Virus record (IMG/VR): IMGVR_UViG_2627853746_000004
Location: 15,274-79,273 of that record
DNA: 64,000 nt
From: a virus
Lineage: Duplodnaviria > Caudoviricetes
Direction: 5' to 3' (one strand)
Part shown: piece by piece, positions 7,018 through 64,000 of the stretch
Layout: each line of letters opens with the position of its first letter
Position numbering within the stretch: the stretch's first letter is position 1
Program-made: the position numbers and the translations under genes
Notes under the pieces: model-generated
What the model saw: only the letters and a program-made list of their open reading frames with translations
Databases searched by the model: none
Told to the model about the DNA's origin: nothing

Positions 7018-7098
7018 ACCCAGGCGAACGCCGGGGGCCGAACCAGATCATTAAGGGAGTAGGAGTAACCCTCCTCTCCCACTAAGGGAGGAACAACG

Positions 7099-7311: not shown

Positions 7312-7799
7312 CACAAAGGGACTGGAAAAAGGATGAAGCACTCTTACAACTCTGCCAAAGAACAGCAGCAGATGAAAATGAAAAGCACGCTCTAAGTATT
7401 GGTTTGCACTGGCTCCAAGAAGCCAAGACACTCCAGGAGATCGCTTCAGGCCGCGGCAGAGAAGCCCTGAGACTTAGCAAATTGCTGGGCGATCTCAACA
7501 ATGAACTGACAGCATCGGAAGAACGTGCAGACGCAGCGGAGATTAACCGGGACAAAGCCTATAACATGATTGGTCACAAAGCCCAAGAGATTGCAGAGTT
7601 ACGTACAGCACTAGGAGAGGCGGAGGCCCGGGAACAACGGCTGAAAGAGGCTGTAGAGACGATCAAAGAATTATCGAAGTGGGACGGTATCTCTCAATAT
7701 CTGGATCGCTGCTATATCGAAGCACGTGACGTTCTTGCCACTCTATACCCAGATATCCCAGCACAACCAGCAGCACCCAAGGGGGGTGGACATGATTAA
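7308..7799 (+). CDS. Coiled-coil hypothetical protein
   Basis: ATGA-coupled ORF. Confidence 0.65.
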   Translation: MTQRDWKKDEALLQLCQRTAADENEKHALSIGLHWLQEAKTLQEIASGRGREALRLSKLLGDLNNELTASEERADAAEINRDKAYNMIGHKAQEIAELRTALGEAEAREQRLKEAVETIKELSKWDGISQYLDRCYIEARDVLATLYPDIPAQPAAPKGGGHD

Positions 7800-7959: not shown

Positions 7960-8330
7960 CACTCACAAGGGAAGAGATACTAAGCCGGTCTCCGGGTAGA
8001 GAAATGGATCGGTGGATACAGGAGCACGTTTTCAAAGTTGATTTATCGGGGTTCCACTGGGCACGTGTTGGCAATAGTATGTTCAAAAATACGGATGGTG
8101 CTGTAACTTGGGTTGACATTCCTGACTACTCTTCGGACATATCCGCAGCATGGGAAGTGGCTGACAAGTTGAAGATTTCAATAATACCACAGTCTTTATC
8201 TGCGCCGGATAATTTAAAATATCTAGCACGAGCAGAATGGGACTTTAGACAAAATGAAATTGATGTATTTGCTGCAACGGCCCCGGAAGCCATCAGCAAG
8301 GTCGCTCTATTGATGGTATTGAAACTTTAA
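7956..8330 (+). CDS. Phage ABA-sandwich (BC1872-like) protein
   Basis: GREMD..I...VF and PDYSSDISAAWEVADKL...ATAPEAISKVAL signature. Confidence 0.7.
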   Translation: MTLTREEILSRSPGREMDRWIQEHVFKVDLSGFHWARVGNSMFKNTDGAVTWVDIPDYSSDISAAWEVADKLKISIIPQSLSAPDNLKYLARAEWDFRQNEIDVFAATAPEAISKVALLMVLKL

Positions 8331-8620
8331 CGGCCGTCAGGCCTCCGTAGCGACCGAATCAGCTTAGCGAAGCGGAGGCCGTATATGGTCTGGTACTTAA
8401 CTTATAAGGGGGCAGAGACACATTCACATTCAATTCATAGCAGAGATGCCGGATGGTGAAAAAATAAAAGGGATGATACTCGTTCTCACGACTTCAGAAG
8501 ATGCACTGCGAAATGAGAAGTGCAAGGCGGCAGTACAGACACTGTATCCAGGCGCTAAGGTACTTGGGTGGATCGAAGTAATAGTTTAGGGGGCATAGAC
8601 CCCAAAGGGAGAGGATACAC

Positions 8621-8992
8621 GTGAGAGAAAGTAAGTTCCGCGGTAAGCATGATGGAGAGTGGGTATACGGGAATTTAGTGAAAACACCATACGGACTGTA
8701 CATTATTCCACAAAATCTGATTTCAAATAGCTTACCGCAGTTTTCAATTGATCCGAAAACAGTGGGTCAATTCATCGGATTTACAGACAAGAATGGACGA
8801 GAGATTTACGGCCGCGATTTGGTAGAAGACGAAAACGGAATCGGGGAAGTTGAATGGGTGCAGGAACACTGCTCTTACCTGGTGTTCACTCGCAACCCTA
8901 GCCAATACCATAGACTTGAATCAGATGGACAACTGAGCCGAACAGCGGTAATTGGGAATGCGATAGATAATCCAGAACTACTAGAGGTATAA
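8621..8992 (+). CDS. YopX family protein
   Basis: MRESKFRGK...WVYG...TVGQFIGFTDKNGREIYGRD...VIGNAIDNPELLE. Confidence 0.9.
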   Translation: MRESKFRGKHDGEWVYGNLVKTPYGLYIIPQNLISNSLPQFSIDPKTVGQFIGFTDKNGREIYGRDLVEDENGIGEVEWVQEHCSYLVFTRNPSQYHRLESDGQLSRTAVIGNAIDNPELLEV

Positions 8993-9007
8993 GGGGGAGA
9001 AGAGGAT

Positions 9008-9319
9008 ATGAGCCGCAACCCTGAGATTGTCTACGAAATCAGCGACATTCTACAATGCTGTGCGGGCTGCCCGCAGCGTGTGGCGCTTATGAGAGAGTTT
9101 GGCAGCACGTTTTCACGGATTGATGGTTACTGTAACCGTGAATGTCCAGTAGGCGGGCTGCTGCAAATGCGAGGTAAAGAGTTAGAAAGGGGCGGGCGCG
9201 GTGAAGCGAATCATCTATGTAGCCGGAGTGAACCGGAAGCATCTGGCAGAACAAGCAAGCAGCGTCCCTTACTGGCTCCTGAGTGCTACGCTGCTGCGGA
9301 AGTACCCATCATGGCTTGA
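9008..9319 (+). CDS. Zinc-finger protein
   Basis: CAGC...YCNRECPVG..LQMRGKEL. Confidence 0.6.
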   Translation: MSRNPEIVYEISDILQCCAGCPQRVALMREFGSTFSRIDGYCNRECPVGGLLQMRGKELERGGRGEANHLCSRSEPEASGRTSKQRPLLAPECYAAAEVPIMA

Positions 9320-45625: not shown

Positions 45626-45868
45626 ATGGATGAGCAACGGATCAGGGAGATTGTGAGGGAGGAACTGGCTAGTTTTGCGGAACTTCAGAAAAAGATTGAA
45701 GAGCTGGAGAAAGATCTGATCTTGTCAAAGCAACAGATGCTCCAAACCCTTCAATTGATTAACGAAAATTTCTCTGAACAATTATCAAAATTAATGGACG
45801 ATCAAAGAGATTCGCTTCTCAATATAGCACTGAACGAAATTAGTCGGCAGTTTGGTAGCAAGAATTAA
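45626..45868 (+). CDS. Small coiled-coil protein
   Basis: SD AGGAGG; MDEQRIREIVREEL. Confidence 0.6.
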   Translation: MDEQRIREIVREELASFAELQKKIEELEKDLILSKQQMLQTLQLINENFSEQLSKLMDDQRDSLLNIALNEISRQFGSKN

Positions 45869-46658
45869 TAAACATGTCACCGTATACCGTAAATGCCCAA
45901 TTTCCTTTTTTGAAATCTATGGATCTACCAGATATCCAAGGGAACCTTTCGGTGTTGCTATAAAGATTAATGCATTCTTCTAGAATTGGATGATTATCCA
46001 AAACTGAATAATAATCTGCTCCTTCAAATTTTTTATCGTAGTCTCCATTTATAAGTGATAATCTCCTAATATTTTGAATGGCAGAACGGTAATGGTAACT
46101 ATTTTCTAAATTCATTTCTGGAAATGGCATGATATCATCCAACAGTAAACTATAAGATCTTGATATCCTTGTTTGGTCCGAATCTTCATATGCAACAATT
46201 GAGGCAATCGGTAAATTACGTTCTTGGGTTAATGTACTTAAAATTTTCGCATCAAAAGGAGAAAGCTGCTTTATCACTTCAACAAATGAAGGATGTGTAA
46301 GATCTTGCTTTTCGCTATCCATGGACGATGCAATCAATTGTGCGAAAAGATTACGTATTTCGTCATGTTCTATGTGATACTTAGCAGCCTCTAATGTAGG
46401 GCCAACTATATTTAATGGGGGCTCTACAAGTCTATCCGAGGGTATTTCTGCTACCTTAGATTCTATTTCTTCCTTAAACTTGTTAATTCTTGGCTCCAAA
46501 GAATTTCTTGCTGCATGAATGGGAGAAAAGACTAACCAGAATAGATTCCCGAGTCCTTCCCCAAGTTCAGTAGTTGGTTTCGATAAAACATTCTTGGATA
46601 ATTCATTTACAGGGATTCCGAGAGCGCCCACTACTTCGGAAATTTTTTTAACATCCAT
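45840..46658 (-). CDS. Abi-alpha (DUF4393) family protein
   Basis: EPPLNIVGPTLE, IRNLFAQLIASSMD, HPSFVEVIKQLSPFDAKIL, TVYGDMFINSC. Confidence 0.85.
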   Translation of the reverse strand: MDVKKISEVVGALGIPVNELSKNVLSKPTTELGEGLGNLFWLVFSPIHAARNSLEPRINKFKEEIESKVAEIPSDRLVEPPLNIVGPTLEAAKYHIEHDEIRNLFAQLIASSMDSEKQDLTHPSFVEVIKQLSPFDAKILSTLTQERNLPIASIVAYEDSDQTRISRSYSLLLDDIMPFPEMNLENSYHYRSAIQNIRRLSLINGDYDKKFEGADYYSVLDNHPILEECINLYSNTERFPWISGRSIDFKKGNWAFTVYGDMFINSCYQTAD

Positions 46659-46873
46659 AAACAAACCTCTCTTCTTTAGAAAATAGGCTAACATCCTACC
46701 TTTCGACAGAATGGGCGGTTTTTCCTGTGGAACACCAGTTCTAATAAACAGAGAAGTCAACTTCTGAATTCCCGTAGTACTACAGCATCCGCAATCAACT
46801 AAACTATAGATATAAGAAAGCCTCTCCAATTCATTGGAGGGGCTTTTACTCTTGTCTGAAAGGAGGAAACATA

Positions 46874-47955: not shown

Positions 47956-48233
47956 TTCTTCACCCTATAGAGTGGAGCGCTGGGGAGAAAGCCTGGCGCT
48001 TCTTTTGTCCGGGTTGCAAACAGTTCCATCCCATTGTTGAAGGTCAGTGGCAGTTTAACGGTGACATGGAGCGCCCGACATTCTCACCGTCATTACTTGT
48101 TGGAGCTGGCACAAATGAAGTGTGTCATAGCTTTATTGTCGATGGGAAAATTCAGTATCTCTCGGACTGCTTTCACGAACTGGCCGGGTCCACAGTTGAT
48201 ATGCCGCATTCAGAGCGGAAGGGGATGAAATAA
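47952..48233 (+). CDS. DUF6527-like small metal-binding protein
   Basis: FCPGC..H...WQFNGD..PTFSPS...CHSFIVDG...DCFH. Confidence 0.75.
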   Translation: MILHPIEWSAGEKAWRFFCPGCKQFHPIVEGQWQFNGDMERPTFSPSLLVGAGTNEVCHSFIVDGKIQYLSDCFHELAGSTVDMPHSERKGMK

Positions 48234-49033
48234 TGCTTACATTGGATCAAGTAAAGCTTAAATCCATGTCCAAGATTGAGAAGTTGCATCCGGTCCTTGT
48301 GGCGGCCACAATCGCGCTAATTGAGCGTTGCTATGCCCGGGGAGTCAATATAGTCATTACCCAGGGGCTGCGGACCATCGCGGAGCAGGATGCACTCTAC
48401 GCGCAGGGTCGCACGAAGCCCGGGCAGATCGTAACCAACGCCAAAGGCGGCACCAGTTACCATAACTACGGGGTGGCTATTGATTTCGCGCTGCTGCTTA
48501 ATGATGGCCGTGTCGTCTCCTGGGATACAAAGCTAGATGTCGATAAAGACGGCGTGTCGGATTGGATGGAAGTAGTAGACGAGGCTAACAAGCTGGGCTT
48601 TGAATGGGGCGGGGATTGGACCAGTTTTAAGGATCTCCCACACCTGCAGATGACATTTGGCTTGAGCACGGCACAGATGCGGGCAGGCCAACAGCCAGCG
48701 GCAGCAAAGGTAGCAGCGGCTTATGCCGTCATTGATAAATTACAAGGGGAGGTTGAAGGGGATATGAACAAGATTACTGAGCTGGAGGGTATTGTCACAA
48801 AGCAAGATGAACGCATATCCGCCCTGGAGAAGCGTCTGAACATCTCTGGCAAGGAAACATACGCCAAGGACTACGAGAAGGCCATACAGGCAGCTAAGGA
48901 CGCAGGCATCATCACTACTTCGGCAGACAAGTCAAAGCTTGAACTAAATGTAATCACAATGCTGGTGAATGTAGGGCTGGCGAATAAGGCTCTGATTTCA
49001 TTTTTCAAAAACTTTAAATCCGAGGTGAAGTAA
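48233..49033 (+). CDS. Endolysin, M15 L-Ala-D-Glu peptidase
   Basis: GLRTIAEQDALYAQGR, SYHNYGVAID, EWGGDW...DLPHLQ. Confidence 0.93.
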   Translation: MLTLDQVKLKSMSKIEKLHPVLVAATIALIERCYARGVNIVITQGLRTIAEQDALYAQGRTKPGQIVTNAKGGTSYHNYGVAIDFALLLNDGRVVSWDTKLDVDKDGVSDWMEVVDEANKLGFEWGGDWTSFKDLPHLQMTFGLSTAQMRAGQQPAAAKVAAAYAVIDKLQGEVEGDMNKITELEGIVTKQDERISALEKRLNISGKETYAKDYEKAIQAAKDAGIITTSADKSKLELNVITMLVNVGLANKALISFFKNFKSEVK

Positions 49034-49383: not shown

Positions 49384-51978
49384 GTGGAAGCACAGCCATT
49401 CATTTTATTTGTGCCAGGTATAAAAGGTAGTGAACTGTTTGAGGGGGATAACAAAAGATGGTTTCCAAAAAACCTAGATGATTTTAATGCATTGAATTTC
49501 AATAATACCCTAGAAGCAAAGGGGCTCTTGAGTATTGTAAATGCATTCGGATTTTATAAAGCAGAGATCTATAAAGGCATGCTTGATCATTATTCCCCTG
49601 AGAATTTTGCATTTTTTGCGTATGATTGGAGACAATCGCTTATCGATATAGTTGACCAATTAACAAGAAAAATTGTAAACGAGAGCCAAGATCACGAATC
49701 GATTGTGCTGGTTGCTCATAGCATGGGCGGAATACTATCAAAAATGGCAATCCATCAACTAGATTCTCTAGGATTACATAACAAGGTGTCAAAATTTATA
49801 AGCGTAGGTACTCCTTGGCATGGATCTCCCGACGCTTACAAAAGTTTAGTTTTTGGTGAGCCAGGTTTATTCAGCAAGTTTTCGCAAGTTTTACAGATGT
49901 TTGATGATGAAAAAACTCGTTTATTAGCTGCTCAATTACCCTCTGTCTATCAACTGCTTCCAAGTAAACATTATTATAATAATTTGGAACAAGGAAAATT
50001 TTTGATAGGTGAAGATAAAGATGTGACGTATGAAGAAATGCTTTTAAAGGCGCAGTCGCTATTTAACAAACAATATTTTGACACATACGGAATCAGTGCT
50101 TCAGTTCCAAATATATGGAATGATATTATGAAACCTGTTCAAGATATTATTCAATTACCAATGCCTGATTATATAGATCATGATTGCTTAGTTGGGTGCG
50201 AGGTCCCAACAATATACAAAATCCCATTTACAACTGACAAAAAAAGGTTACCCTTTAAGAAAGATTGTGTATTTGATAATGGAGATGGCGTAGTTCCGTT
50301 AATGAGTGGAATTCCACTTCATCAAGCAAATATTTACTATTGCAAAGGCGAACATAAAAATTTAACTAATTTGGAATATGTGTTAAATTTTATTGATTGG
50401 TCAGCTAATGGTAAGAACAGTGAACTGCCACAAGATATTAGTCCCGAACCTTTATCTAATGTGTTTAATCGGAAAGTTTTAGCAAAAGTTCTTTGTCCAG
50501 TGGATTCAACAGTTATGGATTCGCAGCATAAGTATATAGCAGGAGTATTTGATACGAGCTTAGAAGATATAAGTCATTTAGCTAATGACGATTCCATTAT
50601 GTATTTTAATGTTGGTGAGGCAAAATACATTTTCTTTAATGAAGAGGTAGATGAAGATATTATTATAAAAATAAATTCATATGATACAGGTGTGGCTGAT
50701 GTCTCAGTTAAATATTTTGATGGCGATGAGGTCACGGAACAAAGTTTTGATCCTATTCCGGTGTCTGATGAGGTTGCGGCAATTGTACGGATACCATTAT
50801 CACGTGAAAATAAAGATGCAGACTTAATTGTTAATGAGGTGAAATATGAATATAAAAAGCGGAGTTACACTAAGCAAATAAATACTGCTGAAGGTGAGGC
50901 AGTTCCTAAATTAACAATAAAGGTTCAAGGGGATGAACGTATTAAGTACAGACCCCTTTTTTCTGGTTCAATTGTAATGAAAATAACTGCAGATAATAAT
51001 GACCTTGTCGAAAATATATATTATTCAGTAGATGATGGGGTTCCGAAAAAATATATTCAAGCTGAAGAACTTGTACTTGATTCTGGAATTCATAAAATTA
51101 AGGCTTTTGGGAAAGATATTTACAATCGCTCACTGTTAGCAAAGGACTATAATTTCACTATTGATAATAATAACCCAAAGACAAAAATAAATATCAACAT
51201 TAATCCAGAAGGCATCATTGTTGTTTTTGACAGTATTTCACTGGGCGGTGCTTCAAAAACTTTTTACCGATTAGGTGATCAAGATTTTCAGGAGGTACCT
51301 CAAGGTGAAGAGTTAACTGTTCCAACAACTGAATTATTGAATGACATCAATTCATTCGTTAAATTGGATTACTATTCCGAAAATGAATTCGGAAAAACAG
51401 AGGACATCAAGAGTCTTAAATTAAGTTTGGGGAATATACCGATATTAATGTGGGAAGAAACAACATCAGCGATAACGCCAGATCTGATTTGGGGTAATAT
51501 ATTTAAACATGACTCTATAGGACTTGAAGAATTTAATATTAGTTTTATTGATGTAAAAGGCTCCAAAGTCACTACGGGCACAGTCGTTCCAGACAATGTT
51601 AAAGGCGTGTCTTTTAAGTCGGAACTTATTGAGATAGAAGCTCGTTACGCAGAAAAATATTCTCTCTATTTTGAGGGGGCACCAACAGAAGTATTAGAAG
51701 TTGGGCAGACATGCAACTTTTCATTTCAACTTCTTACTGAAAGAAGTAAAGAAATGATTACGAATACTTCACCTGTAGTTAGATTGAAAGCTTTCAGGAA
51801 TAGGATTCCTGACATACTTGTTAGGGATTTAATTGAAAAAGACGGTATTTTTTATGGACAATTTGTTGTTGATGAAATCTTTAAACAACATAAATTCAAA
51901 TTAGTAATTACTGATGTCAAAAACACTAATCCAGCATTACGTGAAATACCGCTTATAATGAAGGAAGATGAAGAATAG
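49384..51978 (+). CDS. Large PGAP1/LCAT-like alpha/beta lipase with long beta-rich C-terminus
   Basis: VPGIKGS, YDWR, AHSMGG nucleophile, GTPWHGSP, GDGVVP, GEH. Confidence 0.85.
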   Translation: MEAQPFILFVPGIKGSELFEGDNKRWFPKNLDDFNALNFNNTLEAKGLLSIVNAFGFYKAEIYKGMLDHYSPENFAFFAYDWRQSLIDIVDQLTRKIVNESQDHESIVLVAHSMGGILSKMAIHQLDSLGLHNKVSKFISVGTPWHGSPDAYKSLVFGEPGLFSKFSQVLQMFDDEKTRLLAAQLPSVYQLLPSKHYYNNLEQGKFLIGEDKDVTYEEMLLKAQSLFNKQYFDTYGISASVPNIWNDIMKPVQDIIQLPMPDYIDHDCLVGCEVPTIYKIPFTTDKKRLPFKKDCVFDNGDGVVPLMSGIPLHQANIYYCKGEHKNLTNLEYVLNFIDWSANGKNSELPQDISPEPLSNVFNRKVLAKVLCPVDSTVMDSQHKYIAGVFDTSLEDISHLANDDSIMYFNVGEAKYIFFNEEVDEDIIIKINSYDTGVADVSVKYFDGDEVTEQSFDPIPVSDEVAAIVRIPLSRENKDADLIVNEVKYEYKKRSYTKQINTAEGEAVPKLTIKVQGDERIKYRPLFSGSIVMKITADNNDLVENIYYSVDDGVPKKYIQAEELVLDSGIHKIKAFGKDIYNRSLLAKDYNFTIDNNNPKTKINININPEGIIVVFDSISLGGASKTFYRLGDQDFQEVPQGEELTVPTTELLNDINSFVKLDYYSENEFGKTEDIKSLKLSLGNIPILMWEETTSAITPDLIWGNIFKHDSIGLEEFNISFIDVKGSKVTTGTVVPDNVKGVSFKSELIEIEARYAEKYSLYFEGAPTEVLEVGQTCNFSFQLLTERSKEMITNTSPVVRLKAFRNRIPDILVRDLIEKDGIFYGQFVVDEIFKQHKFKLVITDVKNTNPALREIPLIMKEDEE

Positions 51979-56977: not shown

Positions 56978-57649
56978 TTATCCGATATCTTCTAGTAATT
57001 CCTTAGTGTTATTCCGTACGTTGCCTACAGTTGAAGGGACCTTATAAGCCCTCATCATTGAAGCATCATATGGCTTCAGAAGCTTTAATAAGGATTCGAC
57101 ATCGTCATTGTCTTTCCCCAGCCAATCAGCTTCATCTTCAGGACGCAAGATCACCGGCATGCGGTCATGTATGTCCTCCATGAGACTGTTTGGGGTAGTG
57201 GTGATGATGGTGCAGGTGCTCAATTTCTTTCCTTCCGTATCTTCCCAAGTGTCATACAATCCGGCGAAGGAGAAGAGGCTGCCATCACTCATGAGGATTC
57301 GATATGGCTGCTTGCTGGTCCCGTCCTTTTTCCATTCATAAAAACCGTCAGCTGGTATAATGCAACGCTTGGATTTAAGCAGCCGTTTAAAGGCGGGCTT
57401 CTCAGCGACTGTCTCCGCGCGGGCATTGATCATCTTACTGCCGATCTTATCGTCTTTGGCCCAGAACGGCACCAGCCCCCAGCGCAGTTCCCCAAGGCGT
57501 TTTCCTTCGTCACTGGCGATCACTGCCGGGATATTATGCATAGGTGCGACATTATAGTTTGGCTTTAAAGTAGCTATTTTGGTGTCATCGATTAGGTAAT
57601 GAGTAATTAACTCCTCAAGCGTGACTGTAATTGTAAAGCGTCCACACAT
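56978..57649 (-). CDS. SOS response-associated peptidase (SRAP/HMCES, YoqW/YedK-like)
   Basis: MCGRF start, YNVAP, WGLVP, NARAET, GFYEW, IHDRMP. Confidence 0.95.
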   Translation of the reverse strand: MCGRFTITVTLEELITHYLIDDTKIATLKPNYNVAPMHNIPAVIASDEGKRLGELRWGLVPFWAKDDKIGSKMINARAETVAEKPAFKRLLKSKRCIIPADGFYEWKKDGTSKQPYRILMSDGSLFSFAGLYDTWEDTEGKKLSTCTIITTTPNSLMEDIHDRMPVILRPEDEADWLGKDNDDVESLLKLLKPYDASMMRAYKVPSTVGNVRNNTKELLEDIG

Positions 57650-57685
57650 ATAATCAACCTCCAGATAAGGATGTTTCTATAATAA

Positions 57686-58549
57686 TCAAGTTATGAACTG
57701 TTCAAACACTGGTGTTCTCAGCATGCCAGATTTGGTCCAGTTCCTCATACGAACCTTGGCCCGCAGCCGGGGCTCCAGGTGTACGAACTCCTTATCCTCC
57801 CCGGTAACGAGTTGGCCGGCCACTCCCCGGAATGCTTGCTTGTGGAGCGGGGATGCCCCAAACTCAATTATCCCAGCCGGACGCAGTTTACCGGACGTAC
57901 CGGAAGGTACTGCAGCAAGCCAGCCAAATTCCTGCTTACGATAACCTGTGATATACACCTCTGCATACGTCCAGTTAATTACCTTCTGCCAGGCGTGGGA
58001 GCGGCGGCCGGTCTCATAGATGCTATTCTTGCGCTTAGCTACAACGCCCTCCATACCCCGGGCTTCTATTTGCTCAAACAGAGCCTCGCCTGTACCGTCT
58101 ATATACGGCACAACGCCAAAGCTGGCAGAGGGGAGGGATAATCCTGCAAGGATCTCTTTGCGGCGCAGCAGCGGCAGCCCACGGAGGTCCTGGCCTTTGT
58201 ATTGCAGGATATCAAAGATTGCGTAATAGGCTGGCAAGGTGTCCGTGAGTTTGAGAATCTTGTCTGCCCGCCGAGATTGGAAGCGGCTCATGACAGCCTC
58301 AAAATCTGATACGCCGGTTGCCGGATCTACGCAGGCGACCTCGCCGTCCAGGATTACATCATCTTCAAACGGCAGCTGCAGTTCAGGGTACTGCCGGGTG
58401 CAGTCGTTGTCATGCCGGGTGTACAACCGGACCTTTCCGGCTTGCTGGGAGTATATCAGCCGGTGGCCGTCTATCTTTGGCTCATATATAAAATCGCTGT
58501 GGCTAAACGGCCCGGGAGCCGTTTGCAGCAGCATAGGACTTTTAAACAT
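57686..58549 (-). CDS. ATP-dependent DNA ligase (LigB-like)
   Basis: EPKIDGHR, LDGEV, FDIL, EGVVAK, WQK. Confidence 0.92.
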   Translation of the reverse strand: MFKSPMLLQTAPGPFSHSDFIYEPKIDGHRLIYSQQAGKVRLYTRHDNDCTRQYPELQLPFEDDVILDGEVACVDPATGVSDFEAVMSRFQSRRADKILKLTDTLPAYYAIFDILQYKGQDLRGLPLLRRKEILAGLSLPSASFGVVPYIDGTGEALFEQIEARGMEGVVAKRKNSIYETGRRSHAWQKVINWTYAEVYITGYRKQEFGWLAAVPSGTSGKLRPAGIIEFGASPLHKQAFRGVAGQLVTGEDKEFVHLEPRLRAKVRMRNWTKSGMLRTPVFEQFIT

Positions 58550-58617
58550 AGTTTCACCTCTACGTTTATTATAAAGGCCATCATGGAGAAGATGGTCAGG
58601 TAAGTGCTGGAAGCATG

Positions 58618-58683
58618 GAACGTTTGTTCTATTTTTCCATTGCTTAAAAATCTTCGGCTCGGTTATAATACAAACAAACGTTC
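58618..58683. promoter_or_regulatory. Two LexA (Cheo) boxes flanking a sigma-A promoter
   Basis: GAACGTTTGTTC (58618) and AAACAAACGTTC (58672); TTGCTT(58640)...TATAAT(58664). Confidence 0.75.
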
Positions 58684-58707
58684 TTATTATACCGGAGGCG
58701 ATCAGTC

Positions 58708-58905
58708 ATGAAAATGAGTATCGGCCAAACGATTGAAATGATATACCTGGACAAAGCAGGCAAGATCACTCAGCGGAAGATTGAAGTAAATGGAATTCGT
58801 GACGGCCGTATCCGGGCTACCTGCCTCACTACCGGCGCGCCTCGGGTATTCCTGGTTGAGAATATTCTAGCGTGGAATCTTGTAAAGAGGGGCGTGGTGG
58901 CATGA
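58708..58905 (+). CDS. Small WYL-like protein
   Basis: IEMIYLDKAGKITQRKI...ATC..TGAPRVF. Confidence 0.65.
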   Translation: MKMSIGQTIEMIYLDKAGKITQRKIEVNGIRDGRIRATCLTTGAPRVFLVENILAWNLVKRGVVA

Positions 58906-59120
58906 AACCAATAACACAACGGCAACGCGCGGCATTGCATGCAATCATAAAACTCACGGAATCTCAGGGATATCCTCCAACCGTTCGAGAAATCATGAAA
59001 GAAATTGACCTTACATCCAGTTCAACGGTGCAAGTCTTATTAGATAAATTAGAGGAAAAAGGGTATATAAAGCGACAGGGCAATACTCCACGAGCCCTTA
59101 AGGTGCTGCGCCGTGCTTGA
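58902..59120 (+). CDS. LexA DNA-binding-domain-only protein
   Basis: TQRQ...GYPPTVREI...SSSTV...LEEKGYIKR...PRAL; no peptidase domain. Confidence 0.85.
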   Translation: MKPITQRQRAALHAIIKLTESQGYPPTVREIMKEIDLTSSSTVQVLLDKLEEKGYIKRQGNTPRALKVLRRA

Positions 59121-59412
59121 TGATACACCTCGTAAGCTACTTCGGATCATCGCCCAATATCGATACCATTTCCGGCGGGTGCCGACAATCCGGGAGCTGG
59201 GAAAGTTAAGCGGGCGCAGGCCAGCGGATGTGATCAATGGTTTTAAGGTGTTGGCAGCAGAGCACTATATAGCATGGGACCCAGCCTAACCAATAGAGAC
59301 GGCCACAATCATTGAGGGGTGGGAGCGGCACGTACCTTACGATACAGCACCGCAGGGAGGCGCACAGAGCCCCGGGCGCAGCACTAATATAGATTACTGG
59401 TTGTACCATTAA
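59113..59412 (+). pseudogene. LexA-like HTH gene interrupted by an in-frame TAA at 59287
   Basis: MLDDTPRKLL...VPTIRELGKLSGR...HYIAWDPA*PIETATIIEGWER...YWLYH in one frame. Confidence 0.6.
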
Positions 59413-59426
59413 GGGGGCTTTACATA

Positions 59427-59906
59427 ATGAGTAAATTGGACGGGAATGAGCGATGGAAAACTAAGATGGTTTTGACTGAACATGTGGATCAATACGATCA
59501 GGAGATTAAAGCGGAGGGGGCCGGTAACAAGATACTTACCGTAGAGGAGCGGACAATGGTGCGTGACCTCATATTACTGCCATATATCGAGACTATGGTC
59601 GATAAAAGCCTCCGGGAGATTGAGCTCTCTGGCAGCATACTGAAGAGGGCCTATTTAATGGCTGGACAAAGCATACAGCGCCGGATCACACAGGATACGT
59701 ATCAGCTGAAAAAGGAACTGAAGCAGCGGAACATAAAAGTGGTGCCGGATGAACAGGAAGAGTTCTTGGTTTATCATAAAATCTTTTGCCGGGGGCGACA
59801 GGAGAGGTTTGGTCTTACCCGTGACGTTATGCGTACAGAGATAAGCCTGCGGTTGACCCAGTATACTGCTGAGCTGGGAATGACATTAAAAAATCATTTT
59901 AAATAA
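59427..59906 (+). CDS. Hypothetical protein with YolD-like N-terminal motif
   Basis: KLDGNERW..KMVLTEH. Confidence 0.65.
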   Translation: MSKLDGNERWKTKMVLTEHVDQYDQEIKAEGAGNKILTVEERTMVRDLILLPYIETMVDKSLREIELSGSILKRAYLMAGQSIQRRITQDTYQLKKELKQRNIKVVPDEQEEFLVYHKIFCRGRQERFGLTRDVMRTEISLRLTQYTAELGMTLKNHFK

Positions 59907-59922
59907 CAAAGCCCGTCAGTGA

Positions 59923-60147
59923 TTATACTGGCGGGGTTTCTTCGTCTTCAGGCGTGTATTCAAGGATGTCATGTACCGAAACATTCAAGTATTTGCAAAG
60001 CTTGTCCAGTACATCCCGGGGATAACGTTCCATTGTGTCATTGTACAAACGTCTTACTATTTCAAAGTGGCAATCAGCCTCACGAGCTAATTCTCTAATG
60101 GATAGACCACGTTCATCAGCAATTGCCTTAAGCCTGGAATTAATCAT
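59923..60147 (-). CDS. Cro/C1-type HTH regulator
   Basis: RLKAIADERGLSIRELARE...LDKLCKYLNVSVHDILEY; SD AGGAGG. Confidence 0.88.
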   Translation of the reverse strand: MINSRLKAIADERGLSIRELAREADCHFEIVRRLYNDTMERYPRDVLDKLCKYLNVSVHDILEYTPEDEETPPV

Positions 60148-60175
60148 GGACAACCCTCCTGTAACAAAATTAGCA

Positions 60176-60258
60176 TGACAAAGAAAAGTTGTCAAATTAT
60201 TATTGACAAAGAAAAGTAGTCAGTATAATATTGGATTATCGACAAACAAAGTTAGTCA
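60176..60258. promoter_or_regulatory. Three TGAC-N11-GTCA operator boxes over a sigma-A promoter
   Basis: Boxes at 60176, 60204 and 60240 (third starts CGAC); TTGACA at 60203, TATAAT at 60224. Confidence 0.78.
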
Positions 60259-60275
60259 ATGAGGGGGCTAAACAA

Positions 60276-60446
60276 ATGTATGAAGAGAATGAATATGAAT
60301 TTGAAGTTCATTTCAGGGATCAGCCATATCTGGAAATAACTCGACGTGGTAAAACGCAGCTGGAAGCATTATTCAACGCAGAATGTGACTACGAAAACGA
60401 ACCAGGTTACTCTGCAGTGATCTCAATAGATCCAAATAAAATCTAA
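60276..60446 (+). CDS. Small acidic protein
   Basis: ATG after SD GAGGGGG. Confidence 0.55.
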   Translation: MYEENEYEFEVHFRDQPYLEITRRGKTQLEALFNAECDYENEPGYSAVISIDPNKI

Positions 60447-60475
60447 GCCGGCGGGCATACACGGGAGGAATAGGG

Positions 60476-60646
60476 ATGTTGAATAGCATGACGGTATCTG
60501 ACTCGGAAAAGAAAATGATTGAAGCTATGAGAGCAACCGGCGTTACACCACACAACATGGTACAGATGGCACGGTCTCATGCAATCAAAATCAAAAGTAT
60601 GGAGATTCACCACTATGACCAGATCGTAGATTCGCTGGCACAATAA
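60476..60646 (+). CDS. Small hypothetical protein (56 aa)
   Basis: Not in track; SD GGGAGG. Confidence 0.55.
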   Translation: MLNSMTVSDSEKKMIEAMRATGVTPHNMVQMARSHAIKIKSMEIHHYDQIVDSLAQ

Positions 60647-60682
60647 GGGGCTACGGTCCCTCTAAAGGAGGAAATAAAGTAT

Positions 60683-60850
60683 ATGGATCAATGGAGTAAT
60701 AATGCCTGCCTGGGGTACATCAGGGCTGCACTAGAGCGTAAGGGGTGGAGTGATAAGCAGATCAGAGAAGTAACCGGAGCTGTATATCATGAATTTGATT
60801 TCAAAACAGTAGACGAAGCCAAACGGATCTACGAAAGATCATTTGATTAA
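60683..60850 (+). CDS. Small hypothetical protein (MDQWSNNACLGY..., 55 aa)
   Basis: Not in track; SD AGGAGG. Confidence 0.65.
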   Translation: MDQWSNNACLGYIRAALERKGWSDKQIREVTGAVYHEFDFKTVDEAKRIYERSFD

Positions 60851-60937
60851 TCCGCCTGATGAGCGCTGTCAGCGCCTTGGACCGGCTGCGGGGCTGGTCG
60901 AAACCTACCGGATTCTTATTGCCGGGATGGTCGTGGA
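60851..60937 (+). ncRNA. Type I hammerhead ribozyme (variant with an extra hairpin)
   Basis: Stem I TCCGC/GTGGA; core CTGATGA; stem II GACCGGC/GCTGGTC; GAAAC; cleavage triplet GTC 60930-60932. Confidence 0.72.
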
Positions 60938-60987
60938 ATCCGCCATACGAGGGCTGCGCGCGTCCTCAATGTATAGGAGTGATAGTT

Positions 60988-61233
60988 ATGCTGTACGCAC
61001 ACGAACGCATGGCTGAATTATGGACTATTCAAAAGCAACGTTCTCTTAAGAATTCCGAACAATTAGAAATGGAAATCTGTCAGCAAGCGAATGCATTGTA
61101 CTGCTGGGATTGGGCAAGACTTAAGCATTTTTCTGTTATTGCATCTGAGACTAATGATGTTGAACTTCACCATGAAATTTGTGCTCAGATTGAGGAATTA
61201 CAACTTACCGGAAAGGTCTCTAAGAAACATTGA
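60988..61233 (+). CDS. Small hypothetical protein
   Basis: ATG after SD AGGAGTG. Confidence 0.6.
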   Translation: MLYAHERMAELWTIQKQRSLKNSEQLEMEICQQANALYCWDWARLKHFSVIASETNDVELHHEICAQIEELQLTGKVSKKH

Positions 61234-61345
61234 AAGATCGCCGCCTGATAGACCTATATCGCAGTAAATAAGTAGTATACGCTATACCGGGACCAGATAT
61301 ATAATTAACCTATTGAATGAAAATTATGTCAGGCGGTGTTGTGAT

Positions 61346-61978
61346 TTGTCGTGGGAGCCAATTCTATTCATTGTTTTTTCAACAATTGAAACGTTCGCAG
61401 TTTACTATGTGATGATGTCAATTTATAGGCTAAAACCCATGGAATTTATATGGGAAGCTTTATTCACAATTTTATTGATGGATTTGCAAAGTTTTGTACT
61501 AAGAGAGGAACTGTCGCTTTCGCCTCTCGTACCGTTGATCAACATCTTTTTATTTACGTTATTATTAAAAACGGTAGTAAGAGTGCCGATAATTTGGTCA
61601 ATAATCATCTCAATTACTGGATATTTTCTCATGGTTTTAATACAAGTTGGGATTGTAAATTTATCATTTGGTTTATTGACTGTCGATGAAATACACGCCA
61701 GTCCTGTGAGGGGTTACCTATTGCAAGTATTAAGCGGGGTTATAGGAATAGCAATATTAAAGATATACAACTTTTTTGGAGGCGGATTTGATTTTGAATT
61801 CGAAAAACTGAAATTCAAAAGTGAAACAGTGATTGTGTATTTAATGATTATTGGCACTTTGTTATCTTCCGCAATTCTATTAAGTAGAAATAATTCATTC
61901 CTTGATGTGATTTTTATATCTATAGCGGTGTTATTTTTCTTATTCTATGCAACCAGAAAGGAAAAAGAGAGTGATTGA
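61346..61978 (+). CDS. Polytopic membrane protein, putative AgrC-type sensor domain without kinase
   Basis: About 7 hydrophobic segments over its whole length; overlaps agrB start; no H-box or HATPase. Confidence 0.7.
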   Translation: MSWEPILFIVFSTIETFAVYYVMMSIYRLKPMEFIWEALFTILLMDLQSFVLREELSLSPLVPLINIFLFTLLLKTVVRVPIIWSIIISITGYFLMVLIQVGIVNLSFGLLTVDEIHASPVRGYLLQVLSGVIGIAILKIYNFFGGGFDFEFEKLKFKSETVIVYLMIIGTLLSSAILLSRNNSFLDVIFISIAVLFFLFYATRKEKESD

Positions 61979-62486
61979 ACATCTCGCACGCCTAATTGCC
62001 AGAAAAATAAAAAAAGAAGTTCCAAATCATCATGCTTCAACGGAAGTGCTGGAGTTTTCCTTATCAATATTAATTAATGCAGCTATGATCTTAATTTCTA
62101 CATTTCTCATTTCTATTTTTACAGGTAGGATCGTTGAGACTATTGTTGCTTTGATTGCATTTCCTATACTCAGACAAGTGTCTGGTGGGTTTCACTTAAA
62201 GACAGGGATGGGCTGTGTGTTATTTACAACAATACTAATGACGGCCATATCTTATTCTGATTTTAACAACTCTACGATAGTTGTTTTGGGCATAATCAGT
62301 CTTTTACTAGCAATATTTTATGCCCCGTCCGGAATAGAAAATCAATCAAGAATACCAGAAAAGTATTATCCATTGTTAAAAGTGATCTCAATATTTATTA
62401 TCAGTATTAATTTTTTCATTCTTTCACCTGTAATAGCATCGGCATTTTTTGTGCAAACTTTGACTTTAATTAAATTGAGGAGGTGA
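61971..62486 (+). CDS. agrB: Accessory gene regulator B (peptide cyclase)
   Basis: LRQVSGGFHLKT...C (catalytic His/Cys pattern), YAPS; multi-TM. Confidence 0.9.
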   Translation: MIEHLARLIARKIKKEVPNHHASTEVLEFSLSILINAAMILISTFLISIFTGRIVETIVALIAFPILRQVSGGFHLKTGMGCVLFTTILMTAISYSDFNNSTIVVLGIISLLLAIFYAPSGIENQSRIPEKYYPLLKVISIFIISINFFILSPVIASAFFVQTLTLIKLRR

Positions 62487-62490
62487 TTTT

Positions 62491-62616
62491 ATGAAAAAGG
62501 GAATATATAACATGGCGGCTACTGTTCTAGGCGTTCTTGCTGTAGGGTTTGTTTCCCCAGCAAGTATCTGGTATGTCTATGGGGGAGCAGTACCTAAGGA
62601 ACTATTGAAAAAATAG
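62491..62616 (+). CDS. agrD: AgrD-type cyclic autoinducer precursor (MKKGIYNMAATVLGVLAVGFVSPASIWYVYGGAVPKELLKK)
   Basis: Not in track; SD GAGGAGGTG; amphipathic leader, S-I-W-Y-V ring candidate, PKELL tail; directly after agrB. Confidence 0.85.
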   Translation: MKKGIYNMAATVLGVLAVGFVSPASIWYVYGGAVPKELLKK

Positions 62617-62625
62617 GAGGTTTAC

Positions 62626-63018
62626 ATGACCTACTTCACAGTAACAAAAGATCCAGAAGGGGATACGGGTCTACATACAATAACAGTTGACGATATATTA
62701 ATGTTTGAGTATTCCCGTAGATATAATAAAATTCTAATGACAACTGCAGAAGGTGTATTCTATACAGGCGGAACCTTGGCTTATTGGACGAATGCTTTCA
62801 TCAATACCGGCAAAAACTTTATCCAGTCTGATAGAGGAACTTCGATAAATTTAGACAAGGTTATTTCAGTAGATACAATCTTGAGGGTTGTCTATTTTGA
62901 TTATTATCATAACGGTAAGCAATTAAGGTGTACGATGTCTGAAAAGAGAAGCCCGTCAGTAATAAGGGAGCTTAGGCTACTTGAAGCAAGTGTCGATTTT
63001 ATTAAAGAGCGCTTATAG
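62626..63018 (+). CDS. Stand-alone LytTR DNA-binding protein
   Basis: VDDILMFE, FIQSDRGTSINLDKV; no receiver domain. Confidence 0.85.
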   Translation: MTYFTVTKDPEGDTGLHTITVDDILMFEYSRRYNKILMTTAEGVFYTGGTLAYWTNAFINTGKNFIQSDRGTSINLDKVISVDTILRVVYFDYYHNGKQLRCTMSEKRSPSVIRELRLLEASVDFIKERL

Positions 63019-63029
63019 CGCTCTTTTTT
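63004..63029 (+). terminator. Intrinsic terminator closing the agr-like operon
   Basis: AAAGAGCGCT-TAT-AGCGCTCTTTTTT. Confidence 0.75.
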
Positions 63030-63242
63030 GTGTTCTCAGAAAAGTAAATAGGAGAAAATGTAGAATTATGTCGGTTTGTGAGTAATGTGAAAATATTTCG
63101 TCTGACGAATATGGATGTACATGGAATCTATGGAAGGTGTATTATTGAATTAAATAGAACGGGGGAAAATTTCTTGACATATACTCTTTAAACTCCTTCA
63201 TTGCACGTTAGCTGGCGGGGAGTAGTAATCTACTCCATCTTG

Positions 63243-63473
63243 TTACGTTCGAGGATACTCATAAAGATCAGCTTCAACACATCCCAATACAAGACAGATG
63301 CCCCTGCTCAATAGAGGACCTGGTTGCTTGATCCCTCGTTCAATAAGAGATATCAAAGTATGGGAAGCTGATATATCATGGTTCTTCTTTAACTCAAAGG
63401 ACAGTTGCTCTTGAGTTAACCCTCTGGATAACCTAAGGTCACGTAACAAGCACTCCCCTAAGCTGAGTGCCAT
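63243..63473 (-). CDS. Xre-family HTH regulator
   Basis: LRDLRLSRGLTQEQLS...ISLIERG...ICLVLGCVEADLY. Confidence 0.85.
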   Translation of the reverse strand: MALSLGECLLRDLRLSRGLTQEQLSFELKKNHDISASHTLISLIERGIKQPGPLLSRGICLVLGCVEADLYEYPRT

Positions 63474-63583
63474 AAATCCTCCAATTATTAAAATTTATTT
63501 AAGAAGGTGATTTTAATAGATTATAACACAAGGTTTAATTGATGGCACAATGTAAGGGCGAAGGAGTAAAGGAGGTTAAGTGT

Positions 63584-64000
63584 GTGATCTATATTACGGT
63601 GACTGAGAGCGAAGATGGGGCGGGAATACAGCAAATATTGGTTGAGGATATACTTTATATGCAACTGGACAATCAGCTGATAATTTCAGTATATACTCAA
63701 ACCGCCAAATACTTTACTGTTGGGAATTTGAGATTTTGGGCATCGGCATTTGAAAAAGCAGGATTAAATTTTTTGCGGTTAGATCGTGGGGTCTTGGCAA
63801 ACTCTGAGAAGATCAGAGCGATAGATTCTTATTACAAAATGGCGTACTTTGATGTTGTTATTAATAAAGACACTATACGGTGTACAATGTCTATCACAGG
63901 TTACAAGGCATTTTGCGAGATATATAACATTACTCAAAAAGGTAGCAAGACCGCTGCGAGCATAATGTTTAAAGGCTTGTCCTGGCAGACAAGCCTTTAA
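63584..64000 (+). CDS. Second stand-alone LytTR protein
   Basis: VEDILYM, FLRLDRGVLANSEKI; GTG after SD AAGGAGG; paralog of 62626. Confidence 0.82.
   Translation: MIYITVTESEDGAGIQQILVEDILYMQLDNQLIISVYTQTAKYFTVGNLRFWASAFEKAGLNFLRLDRGVLANSEKIRAIDSYYKMAYFDVVINKDTIRCTMSITGYKAFCEIYNITQKGSKTAASIMFKGLSWQTSL

What the first reader, a model, noticed from the sequence alone, without database searches (positions are those of the whole stretch)
61346..64000. Agr-like peptide-signalling cassette with no kinase or receiver, at the phage accessory end
Seen: a tightly coupled operon of a ~7-TM protein, AgrB, an unannotated 41-aa AgrD and a LytTR-only protein, closed by a terminator. An Xre HTH and a divergent second LytTR paralog follow. 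The membrane protein ends right after its last TM (no HisKA/HATPase), and neither LytTR has a REC domain. Established: canonical agr needs the AgrC kinase and AgrA (REC+LytTR); C. difficile phage phiCDHM1 carries agrBDC homologues; streptococcal LRS pairs (HdrRM, BrsRM) use a membrane inhibitor to hold a stand-alone LytTR without phosphorylation. Inference: an Agr/LRS hybrid in which a cyclic peptide binds the membrane protein and releases LytTR, giving phosphorylation-free quorum sensing that may inform lysis-lysogeny or host behaviour.
Basis: partly seen in the sequence, partly recalled or inferred. Interest (0 to 1): 0.9.

Follow-up and report, generated by a model that had tools for sequence, protein, structure and literature searches.

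The report
Kinase-free agr peptide cassette in prophage
A Paenibacillus prophage carries a four-gene cell-to-cell peptide signalling unit that has a small seven-helix membrane protein and a bare DNA-binding protein where the usual sensor kinase and phosphorylated regulator would be, so it probably signals without phosphate transfer, which nobody has tested.

Summary
Window 61346-63018 holds a tightly coupled operon: a 210-aa seven-helix membrane protein with no known family, AgrB, a 41-aa AgrD, and a 130-aa LytTR-only protein, closed by a terminator. An Xre gene and a second LytTR paralog follow.

The membrane protein is not a truncated AgrC. Its family has 363 cluster representatives, and all 150 best are 242 aa or shorter. 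The same gene order recurs in 30 of 32 Paenibacillaceae loci, in IMG/VR proviruses, and distantly in Brevibacillus phages Abouo and Emery. All 11 AgrB genes found in five genomes have this layout. Of 126 neighbouring genes, 2 have a kinase ATPase domain and 3 a receiver domain.

The phage link is supported: the unit recurs a few kb after the lysis genes or beside an integrase.

The proposed mechanism, that the membrane protein senses the peptide and controls LytTR directly, remains an inference. It is favoured by AgrB-less loci that keep the membrane protein, AgrD and LytTR, and by the closer co-variation of the membrane protein with LytTR. No homology to kinase sensor domains was detected.

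Hargreaves 2014 noted the kinase-less membrane proteins in phages. This scan has found the cassette before on other DNA (83 notes).

The parts
61231..61345 (+). Promoter and leader of the cassette. It has a TATAAT at 61300-61305 and no -35-like hexamer. A conserved box AGTAGTATAC lies at 61271-61280, with a weaker upstream copy 11 nt before it. The leader carries the ribosome binding site for the TTG start.
   Evidence: Sequence. In a DNA alignment of 9 related loci, this block is kept at the nucleotide level although the proteins behind it are only 38-57% identical. The box occurs exactly only here in the window (4 matches at up to 1 mismatch, 2.1 expected). A role as a LytTR operator is inference.
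61346..61978 (+). Seven-helix membrane protein of 210 aa (alternative TTG start at 61313). It belongs to a new family with no kinase domain and is the proposed peptide sensor and anti-regulator.
   Evidence: (phrog_15604, E 1e-4).
61947..62486 (+). AgrB peptidase, 179 aa (alternative GTG start at 61971). It has the His83/Cys90 pair.
   Evidence: PF04647 E 1.1e-21. phrog_10353 E 1.9e-37. His and Cys are invariant in 28 of 28 aligned AgrB.
62491..62616 (+). AgrD precursor, 41 aa. The predicted ring is Ser plus four residues (S-I-W-Y-V), with the Ser 10 residues before the Pro of the VPKELL tail.
   Evidence: TIGR04223 19.7 bits against a cut-off of 19. Strong ribosome binding site. Family pattern with Ser or Cys at the same position.
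62626..63018 (+). LytTR1, 130 aa. It is an AgrA-like DNA-binding domain with a C-terminal helix and short strand, and no receiver domain.
   Evidence: PF04397. Model pLDDT 94.1. Best fold match is the S. aureus AgrA LytTR domain 4g4k, E 1.1e-6, target TM-score 0.87, rmsd 2.1.
63004..63033 (+). Intrinsic terminator closing the operon.
63243..63473 (-). Xre-type helix-turn-helix protein, 76 aa, convergent with the operon and divergent from LytTR2.
   Evidence: HTH_3 23.7 bits. Homologues sit at the same position in L005, L010, L013, L020, L032, L087, L089, L091, L092, L096.
63474..63583 (.). Divergent control region between Xre and LytTR2. It holds a perfect 9-bp inverted repeat at 63486-63494 / 63510-63518 and promoter-like sites on both strands.
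   Evidence: Its function is inferred.
63584..64000 (+). LytTR2, 138 aa from the GTG behind AAGGAGG (153 aa from the TTG at 63539). It is a receiver-less paralog of LytTR1. Its stop codon is the last three bases of the record.
   Evidence: Orthologues at E about 1e-53 to 1e-56 follow Xre in L087 and L089, and one follows LytTR1 directly in L012.

Best explanation
This is a self-contained agr-type peptide quorum-sensing module that works without a phosphorelay, carried at the integrase-proximal accessory end of a temperate Paenibacillus phage.

**Proposed steps**
- AgrB, which has its His/Cys pair, cuts and cyclises the 41-aa AgrD into a Ser-lactone peptide with ring S-I-W-Y-V. The peptide is exported.
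- The seven-helix membrane protein takes the place of the AgrC sensor and detects the peptide at the outer face.
- It has no kinase. Through its conserved cytoplasmic loop (G-x-G-F-x-F-x-F-E-K) and its R-K-E tail it holds or releases the receiver-less, AgrA-like LytTR1 protein.
- LytTR1 then acts on the cassette's own conserved, -35-less promoter and on other targets. Likely targets include the adjacent Xre/LytTR2 pair.

**Shown:** gene content, conservation of the four-gene unit, absence of kinase and receiver domains, the AgrA-like fold, and linkage with prophages.

**Inferred:** peptide binding by the membrane protein, its contact with LytTR1, the direction of control, and the target genes.
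For: **Domains and coupling**
- Domain assignments and translational coupling.
- The AgrB catalytic-type His and Cys are invariant in 28 of 28 aligned proteins.
- AgrD-like ORFs were found in 31 of 32 loci by phmmer or by the ribosome-binding-site ORF scan. Ser sits 10 residues before the conserved Pro, and Cys replaces it in L008 and L028. The ring residues vary between loci.

**The membrane protein is a stand-alone family**
- The four close homologues are 209-215 aa.
- A profile search of 1.84 billion proteins gave 363 hits at E<=1e-3. The 150 listed are 71-242 aa.
- No longer relative scored among 8000 candidates of 378-2000 aa (weak evidence).

**Synteny**
- Of 32 genome loci found through the membrane protein, 30 have AgrB next to it and 30 have a LytTR-only gene straight after.
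- All 11 AgrB hits in five whole genomes have a member of the membrane family directly upstream.
- Of 126 flanking genes, 2 carry HATPase_c and 3 carry Response_reg. The tally lists exactly three AraC-type HTH hits as well (HTH_18 3, HTH_AraC 3), but it does not show whether they lie in the same proteins as the receiver hits.

**Evidence that the membrane protein and LytTR are the functional pair**
- Four modules have lost AgrB or keep only a 36-47 aa remnant (L023, L032, L011 and the second copy in L018). They keep intact membrane protein, AgrD and LytTR genes. The viral loci L094 and L096 do the same.
- Pairwise identities of the membrane protein track LytTR (r 0.67) better than AgrB (r 0.58). 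This held in 96% of 300 bootstraps, although the two genes are the outermost in the operon.

**Other support**
- The LytTR1 model matches the AgrA DNA-binding domain.
- Brevibacillus phages Abouo and Emery have the same four-gene order, checked. For Abouo, hhalign links the membrane protein at 94% probability and the LytTR protein at 82%.
- Stand-alone LytTR regulators held by membrane inhibitors are an established mechanism (LRS; PMC6193735, passages seen).
Against: - There is no direct evidence of binding.
- The membrane-protein profile finds nothing in the polytopic GHKL kinases of five related genomes (best E 0.13 among 900 ORFs).
- The profile and the model find no solved structure. Kinship with AgrC sensors is therefore unsupported.
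- The gene order (membrane protein first, LytTR last) is the reverse of published LRS operons.
- The membrane gene overlaps the AgrB start, which would also fit a biosynthetic partner.
- No family-wide LytTR-type direct repeat was found upstream: 11 of 33 regions against 5.8 +/- 2.0 in shuffles at 17-25 nt spacing, and 8 of 33 against 3.8 +/- 1.9 at 10-12 nt. The motifs are not shared.
- No RNA data were found.
- The co-variation measure uses related, non-independent sequences.
Confidence: 0.5

Rival explanations
1. The membrane protein is an accessory of peptide production, serving in export, leader removal or self-protection, and is not the sensor. LytTR1 would then be regulated some other way or be constitutive.
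For: - The membrane gene is always directly upstream of AgrB and overlaps its start.
- The family has conserved polar residues inside helices (S12, E15, Q48, Q100), which could form an active site or a channel.
- No similarity to sensor domains was found.
Against: - Modules that have lost AgrB keep the membrane protein together with LytTR.
- The membrane protein co-varies more with LytTR than with AgrB.
- It has no match to a protease, transporter or CPBP family at E<=1, and no conserved His or Cys.
- In P. polymyxa, agrBD alone gave the peptide in B. subtilis (PMC12180512, passages seen). That is a different, canonical locus.
Confidence: 0.2
2. The peptide is read by a host two-component system encoded elsewhere. 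The phage LytTR-only proteins would then act as decoys or competitors at AgrA-type DNA sites, and the membrane protein would have an unrelated role.
For: - Hargreaves 2014 proposed a host-mediated response for phiCDHM1, which lacks a regulator.
- Each of the five related genomes holds 7-19 GHKL-type kinase hits.
- LytTR1 has an AgrA-like fold.
Against: - In those five genomes none of the 11 AgrB genes sits in a canonical agrBDCA locus. All have the membrane-protein layout, so the cassette is the only agr type there.
- The unit keeps its own LytTR in 30 of 32 loci.
- There is no conserved kinase neighbour.
Confidence: 0.12
3. The cassette is a chromosomal locus swept into an over-long provirus call, and is not part of the phage.
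For: - It lies 12 kb after the endolysin, at the very edge of the record, which is cut at a gene border.
- No att repeat of 17 nt or more was found.
- Most of the 32 genome loci have ordinary chromosomal neighbours.
Against: - The same upstream genes (SRAP, DNA ligase, LexA-type protein, DUF7667) and the downstream Xre accompany it in L005, L013, L020 and L087.
- In L020, endolysin and holin homologues lie 5 kb upstream, and host metabolic genes start 1.2 kb after Xre.
- In L087, a tyrosine integrase and then host AraC and rhamnosidase genes follow LytTR2.
- Of 8 IMG/VR loci, 3 have an endolysin homologue within 8 kb upstream.
- Provirus G120 has its integrase at one end and the cassette at the other, as here.
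- Isolated Brevibacillus phages carry the analogous unit beside their integrase.
Confidence: 0.1
4. The unit is a decayed canonical agr locus, with a truncated agrC and an agrA that has lost its receiver.
For: The sizes resemble an AgrC sensor half and an AgrA output half.
Against: - The short forms are conserved as full-length families across hundreds of clusters, with intact frames.
- The gene order differs from agrBDCA.
- No kinase remnant follows the last helix.
Confidence: 0.02

Closest known systems
Canonical agr quorum sensing (agrBDCA of Staphylococcus aureus; also in P. polymyxa, PMC13700820 and PMC12180512)
   Same: - It has AgrB with the His/Cys pair.
- It has AgrD with the ring-forming Ser or Cys 10 residues before the conserved Pro, and an acidic/Lys tail.
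- It has an AgrA-like LytTR DNA-binding fold.
- All genes lie in one operon, and the ring residues vary between loci.
   Different: - It has no AgrC kinase and no receiver domain on the regulator.
- A 210-aa seven-helix protein of an unnamed family stands first in the operon.
- The gene order is membrane protein, B, D, LytTR.
LytTR regulatory systems (HdrRM and BrsRM of Streptococcus mutans; Zou et al. 2018, PMC6193735)
   Same: It pairs a receiver-less LytTR regulator with a membrane protein in the same operon, and no phosphotransfer parts are present.
   Different: - In LRS the regulator gene comes first and the operon has no agrBD.
- The LRS signal is unknown, whereas here a cognate peptide is encoded.
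- The membrane protein shows no match to the LRS inhibitor families.
- Inhibition is not shown here.
agr-like cassettes of Brevibacillus laterosporus phages Abouo, Davies and Emery (noted by Hargreaves et al. 2014, PMC3901668)
   Same: - The order is the same: membrane protein (222 aa), AgrB, a 38-42 aa peptide, and a LytTR-only protein (121-122 aa).
- They sit in the lysogeny region beside the integrase.
- The membrane protein is a distant relative (hhalign 94%).
   Different: - The sequences are very distant, with no BLAST-level similarity.
- The LytTR gene is annotated as peptidase or hypothetical there. The 2014 passages that describe these phage cassettes do not list a LytTR gene.
phiCDHM1 agr3 (agrC, agrB, agrD) of a Clostridioides difficile phage
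   Same: It is a phage-borne agr-type signal synthesis unit in the accessory region.
   Different: phiCDHM1 has a 453-aa kinase with HATPase_c and no regulator. Here there is a regulator and no kinase.
Arbitrium (AimP/AimR) phage peptide communication
   Same: It is a temperate-phage-encoded secreted peptide system placed next to lysogeny control genes.
   Different: - Arbitrium uses a linear peptide read inside the cell by a TPR receptor.
- AgrD gives only a sub-threshold AimP hit (15 bits against a cut-off of 35).
- No AimR-like protein is present.

Membership tests
agr quorum sensing (agrBDCA) | AgrB membrane peptidase with a catalytic His and Cys | tested here: met
   PF04647 E 1.1e-21. 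His83 and Cys90, seven residues apart, are invariant in 28 of 28 aligned AgrB. The catalytic role of this pair is recalled from the S. aureus literature, not tested here.
agr quorum sensing (agrBDCA) | AgrD precursor with a ring-forming Cys or Ser and a conserved C-terminal recognition tail | tested here: met
   TIGR04223 19.7 bits against a cut-off of 19. Ser, or Cys in 2 loci, lies 10 residues before the Pro of P-x-E-L-L across the family.
agr quorum sensing (agrBDCA) | AgrC sensor histidine kinase (HisKA/HATPase) | tested here: not met
   No kinase domain is present in any cassette protein. The membrane family is 242 aa or shorter in the 150 best of 363 hits. Only 2 of 126 neighbouring genes have HATPase_c.
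agr quorum sensing (agrBDCA) | AgrA response regulator with a receiver domain plus LytTR | tested here: not met
   The LytTR domain is present with an AgrA-like fold. The proteins are 130 and 138 aa and show no Response_reg hit.
AgrC-type polytopic sensor domain (homology of the membrane protein) | Sequence or fold similarity to the membrane part of AgrC/ComD-type kinases | tested here: inconclusive
   The profile scored a best E of 0.13 against 900 ORFs around 30 GHKL kinases of five genomes. No solved structure of such a sensor turned up. These sensors diverge fast, so absence of a hit does not exclude kinship.
LytTR regulatory systems (LRS) | Stand-alone LytTR regulator without a receiver domain or phospho-acceptor | tested here: met
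LytTR regulatory systems (LRS) | Membrane protein co-transcribed with the regulator, encoded downstream of it | tested here: not met
   The two are co-transcribed, but the membrane gene is first and LytTR last, with agrBD between them. All identified LRS have the regulator upstream (PMC6193735).
LytTR regulatory systems (LRS) | The membrane protein inhibits the regulator, with positive autoregulation through direct repeats | not testable with these tools
The repeat scans were weak. A conserved box AGTAGTATAC upstream of the -10 exists in the closest loci only.
Temperate-phage accessory (moron) module | Lies inside the integrated element and travels with phage genes | tested here: met
   The record is an IMG/VR provirus. 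Linkage with lysis genes, integrase and the same accessory genes is conserved in other genomes and proviruses. The att sites of this copy were not found.
Arbitrium | AimP peptide and AimR receptor | tested here: not met
   AimP_fam scored 15 bits against a cut-off of 35. There is no TPR receptor in the cassette.

The most novel reading that the evidence does not exclude
Temperate phages of Paenibacillaceae may use an agr-type cyclic lactone peptide as their own communication signal. A new class of seven-helix receptor would read it and pass the signal, without any phosphorylation, by releasing a bare LytTR protein. That protein would feed through the adjacent Xre/LytTR2 pair into the lysis-lysogeny switch. 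This would be a second, mechanistically unrelated counterpart of arbitrium, with pherotype-like diversification of ring and receptor.
Probability: 0.15. Interest if true: 0.9.

Novelty: new variant of a known kind. Interest (0 to 1): 0.65.

Why it matters
Agr signalling is the textbook example of peptide sensing through a histidine kinase.

- **Signal transduction.** A widespread agr variant in which a 210-aa membrane protein and a bare LytTR domain replace the kinase pair would show that cyclic autoinducing peptides can be read without phosphotransfer.
- **LytTR regulatory systems.** It would give these systems, whose signals are unknown, a case with a genetically encoded ligand.
- **Agr in soil Bacillales.** In the five Paenibacillaceae genomes checked, it is the only agr layout present.
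- **Phage biology.** Carriage next to integrase and repressor genes makes it a candidate phage-phage or phage-host communication channel.
- **Testability.** The unit is small, with four genes in about 1.7 kb, and could be tested directly in Bacillus subtilis.

Tried and rejected
**Searches and tests that gave nothing**
- Close-relative searches with the single membrane protein found nothing in viral or genome contigs. Alignment A2 was too diverse for pattern search, so A3 was used instead.
- Megablast of the cassette and of the structural region against GenBank phages found no match. tblastn of the membrane protein against phages found no match.
- Fold searches of the membrane model gave no hit: Foldseek PDB had none at E<=1e-3, and the best VIA wide hit was Z 8.0 to Pex3, within the noise for helical bundles. 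The PDB sequence profile gave only CorA at E 0.04. The Atlas returned only unnamed clusters.
- The search for longer, fused relatives found none. This is weak evidence.
- The PADLOC library gave no defence-system match for the cassette proteins apart from a weak HTH hit for Xre.
- Scans for direct repeats upstream of the membrane gene across 33 loci gave only a small excess with no shared motif.
- The att search found no repeat of 17 nt or more between the two ends of the record. One 13-mer sits at suggestive places (contig 6070 and 64675) but is within chance expectation.
- No tRNA gene is in the record.
- The host genome was not among 116 genomes of the genus of G001.
- Sequencing runs: no RNA holder was listed, and the best DNA holder had a share of 0.19.

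**Literature**
- Five searches and passages of five papers turned up no description of the four-gene unit with its LytTR-only partner.
- Supplementary tables were closed. They include the LRS list S3 of PMC6193735 and table S3 of PMC12180512, and may hold relevant loci.

**Ideas rejected**
- A truncated agrC, a CPBP-type (MroQ-like) protease, and arbitrium were considered and rejected (see rivals and the membership test).

Full report
**What is there**

The window is the last 64 kb of a 79,273-base IMG/VR provirus record, with CheckV completeness 100%. The record starts on an ATG and ends exactly on the stop codon of the last gene.

At 61346-63018 four genes stand head to tail on the plus strand.
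- A 210-aa membrane protein starts at the TTG at 61346. An in-frame TTG at 61313 would give 221 aa.
- AgrB follows (PF04647, E 1.1e-21).
- A 41-aa AgrD follows (TIGR04223, 19.7 bits against a cut-off of 19).
- A 130-aa protein follows that is almost entirely a LytTR domain (PF04397, 23.1 bits against 22.6).

The membrane gene's stop overlaps the AgrB start. AgrD starts 4 nt after AgrB, and LytTR1 starts 9 nt after AgrD, each behind a GGAGG-type site. A 10-bp hairpin with a T run closes the operon at 63004-63026.

A 76-aa Xre protein is encoded on the minus strand at 63243-63473. A second receiver-less LytTR protein runs from 63584, or 63539, to 64000. It is 36% identical to LytTR1, E 1e-21.

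**The membrane protein is a full-length family, not a broken kinase**

It has no Pfam or NCBIfam family and only a weak match to PHROG 15604, "membrane protein" (E 1e-4).
- Its four close homologues are 209-215 aa and end at the same place.
- A profile search of 1.84 billion representatives gave 363 hits at E<=1e-3. The 150 listed are 71-242 aa.
- A search restricted to longer proteins found nothing (weak evidence).
- AlphaFold gives a confident seven-helix bundle, pLDDT 87.5.
- By the positive-inside rule, which is my inference, the N-terminus is outside. The strongly conserved loop G-x-G-F-x-F-x-F-E-K-L-K and the R-K-E tail are then cytoplasmic.
- No solved structure resembles it.
- Its profile does not detect the polytopic GHKL kinases of five related genomes (best E 0.13 among 900 ORFs).

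Kinship with AgrC sensors is therefore neither shown nor excluded.

**The four-gene unit is conserved and widespread**

A pattern search with the family alignment gave 32 loci in Paenibacillus, Cohnella, Neobacillus and two MAGs.
- AgrB follows the membrane gene in 30 of 32 loci.
- A LytTR-only gene follows in 30 of 32.
- An AgrD-like ORF is seen in 31 of 32 by one method or the other. L019 is unresolved.
- AgrD has Ser exactly 10 residues before the Pro of the P-x-E-L-L tail. Cys takes this place in L008 and L028, as expected of the ring-forming residue. The four ring residues differ from locus to locus.
- The AgrB His/Cys pair is invariant in 28 of 28.

Starting from AgrB instead, all 11 AgrB hits in five whole genomes have a family member directly upstream. 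In those genomes this is the only agr layout.

Of 126 genes flanking the unit (two on each side), 2 have HATPase_c and 3 have Response_reg. The same tally lists three AraC-type HTH hits, but not whether they fall in the receiver-bearing proteins. Eleven are Xre-type.

Brevibacillus phages Abouo and Emery have the same order beside their integrase: a 222-aa membrane protein, AgrB, a 38-42 aa peptide, and a 121-122 aa LytTR protein annotated "peptidase" or "hypothetical". One search shows AgrB under a membrane protein in Davies as well. hhalign ties Abouo gp44 to the family at 94% probability and gp47 to the LytTR set at 82%.

**Phage link**

The structural and lysis genes end with the endolysin at 48233-49033. 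Accessory genes follow:
- an LCAT-like lipase;
- SRAP;
- an ATP-dependent DNA ligase;
- a LexA-type small protein;
- an Xre protein;
- DUF7667;
- then the cassette.

I could not find att sites.

The same accessory genes and the downstream Xre accompany the cassette in L005, L013 and L020. In L020, endolysin and holin homologues lie 5 kb upstream, and host metabolic genes begin 1.2 kb after Xre.

In L087 the full six-gene unit, including Xre and LytTR2, is followed by a tyrosine integrase and then by host AraC and rhamnosidase genes.

Eight IMG/VR proviruses hold family members.
- Three have a complete detected unit (L090-L092).
- Two are AgrB-less (L094, L096).
- One is cut by the contig end (L093).
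- One lacks a detected AgrD (L095).
- One shows only the membrane gene (L097).
- Three have an endolysin homologue within 8 kb upstream.

Provirus G120 has its integrase at one end and the cassette at the other, as in this record. In L010, L013 and L092 a cI-like repressor and Rha or ORF6-type antirepressor genes follow Xre.

The cassette is therefore a recurrent cargo of the region that flanks attP and the lysogeny genes. Many other copies sit in ordinary chromosomal surroundings.

The orthologous units show an integrase or host metabolic genes there instead.

**How it most likely works**

Signal synthesis by AgrB and AgrD is well grounded. For sensing, two observations favour the membrane protein and LytTR as a pair.
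- Four genome modules and two viral ones have lost AgrB but keep intact membrane protein, AgrD and LytTR genes. This is hard to reconcile with a purely biosynthetic role.
- Pairwise identities of the membrane protein correlate better with LytTR (r 0.67) than with AgrB (r 0.58), and AgrB with LytTR gives r 0.56. This order held in 96% and 99.7% of 300 bootstraps, although the two genes are the outermost of the operon. The sequences are related, so this is suggestive only.

The LytTR1 model (pLDDT 94) superposes on the AgrA DNA-binding domain, 4g4k, at rmsd 2.1 Å. It adds a C-terminal helix and a short strand.

With no receiver domain and no kinase, control by direct protein contact is the simplest reading. 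This is the known mechanism of the streptococcal LytTR regulatory systems (PMC6193735). The direction of control, the targets, and the roles of Xre and LytTR2 are inferred.

The promoter and leader (61231-61345) are conserved at the DNA level among loci whose proteins have diverged to 38-57% identity. The promoter has a -10 but no -35, and a conserved AGTAGTATAC box 19 nt upstream of the -10. This fits an activator-dependent promoter. Family-wide repeat scans were weak.

**What is known already**

Hargreaves et al. [quoted passage not shown] They did not list a LytTR gene in those cassettes.

The Brevibacillus phage paper only lists "Gene reg B" (PMC4909266). The P. polymyxa papers describe a canonical agrABCD locus (PMC13700820; PMC12180512). 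The LRS paper does not mention agr loci in the passages found.

Five literature searches gave no description of the unit as a kinase-free sensing system. Supplements were closed.

Earlier agents of this scan noted the same cassette on other DNA, with 83 notes in at least 69 genomes. Their conclusions match mine.

**Verdict**

This is a real, conserved, prophage-borne and kinase-free agr variant. The layout is new as a described system, but it is built from known parts and was partly noticed in 2014. The mechanism is plausible and untested. I rate interest at 0.65.

Noticed in passing
G000:C1:6195-6240 (left of the window, between integrase genes at contig 4778-5929 and 6392-7636): A tRNA 3' fragment (T-arm plus acceptor strand, minus strand) lies between two oppositely oriented tyrosine integrase genes. 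No whole tRNA is in the record. This suggests integration into a tRNA gene and perhaps two adjacent elements. The partner site was not found.
   Followed up: partly
Rfam at E<=1 finds nothing in 58000-64000. The stretch lies inside an ORF with a solid DUF7667 match (PF24704, E 5e-28).
   Followed up: partly
window 61231-61345 and the same region of L003, L004, L005, L012, L020, L087: The promoter and leader of the cassette are far better conserved at the DNA level than the coding sequences behind them. This recalls conserved flanks around a hypervariable agr core and could allow cassette swapping by recombination.
   Followed up: no
L018:5974-10149: Two modules stand in tandem with complementary losses. 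The first has the membrane protein, AgrB and AgrD but no LytTR. The second has the membrane protein, a 47-aa AgrB remnant, AgrD and LytTR.
   Followed up: no
L023, L032, L094, L096 (about 6000-7200 or 8000-9200 of each): These are AgrB-less versions in which the membrane gene is followed directly by an AgrD-like ORF and LytTR. They may be listener modules that depend on an AgrB elsewhere.
   Followed up: partly
alignment A6 (LytTR proteins of 30 loci): Many LytTR proteins end in a short hydrophobic tail after an N-P or similar turn. The window's LytTR1 ends differently. This may be a docking peptide.
   Followed up: no
window 45840-46829 (-), 49384-51978 (+), 56978-58549 (-), 58872-59120 (+): Other cargo lies between the tail genes and the cassette: Abi_alpha (E 1e-44), an 864-aa LCAT/PGAP1-like lipase in a low-GC stretch, SRAP plus an ATP-dependent DNA ligase, and an 82-aa protein that is only a LexA DNA-binding domain.
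   Followed up: no
L010:7917-10129, L013:7910-10072, L092:9917-10659: In these elements the cassette's Xre is followed by a cI-like repressor on the same strand and by Rha or ORF6N/ORF6C antirepressor genes. The cassette therefore abuts a lysogeny switch.
   Followed up: partly
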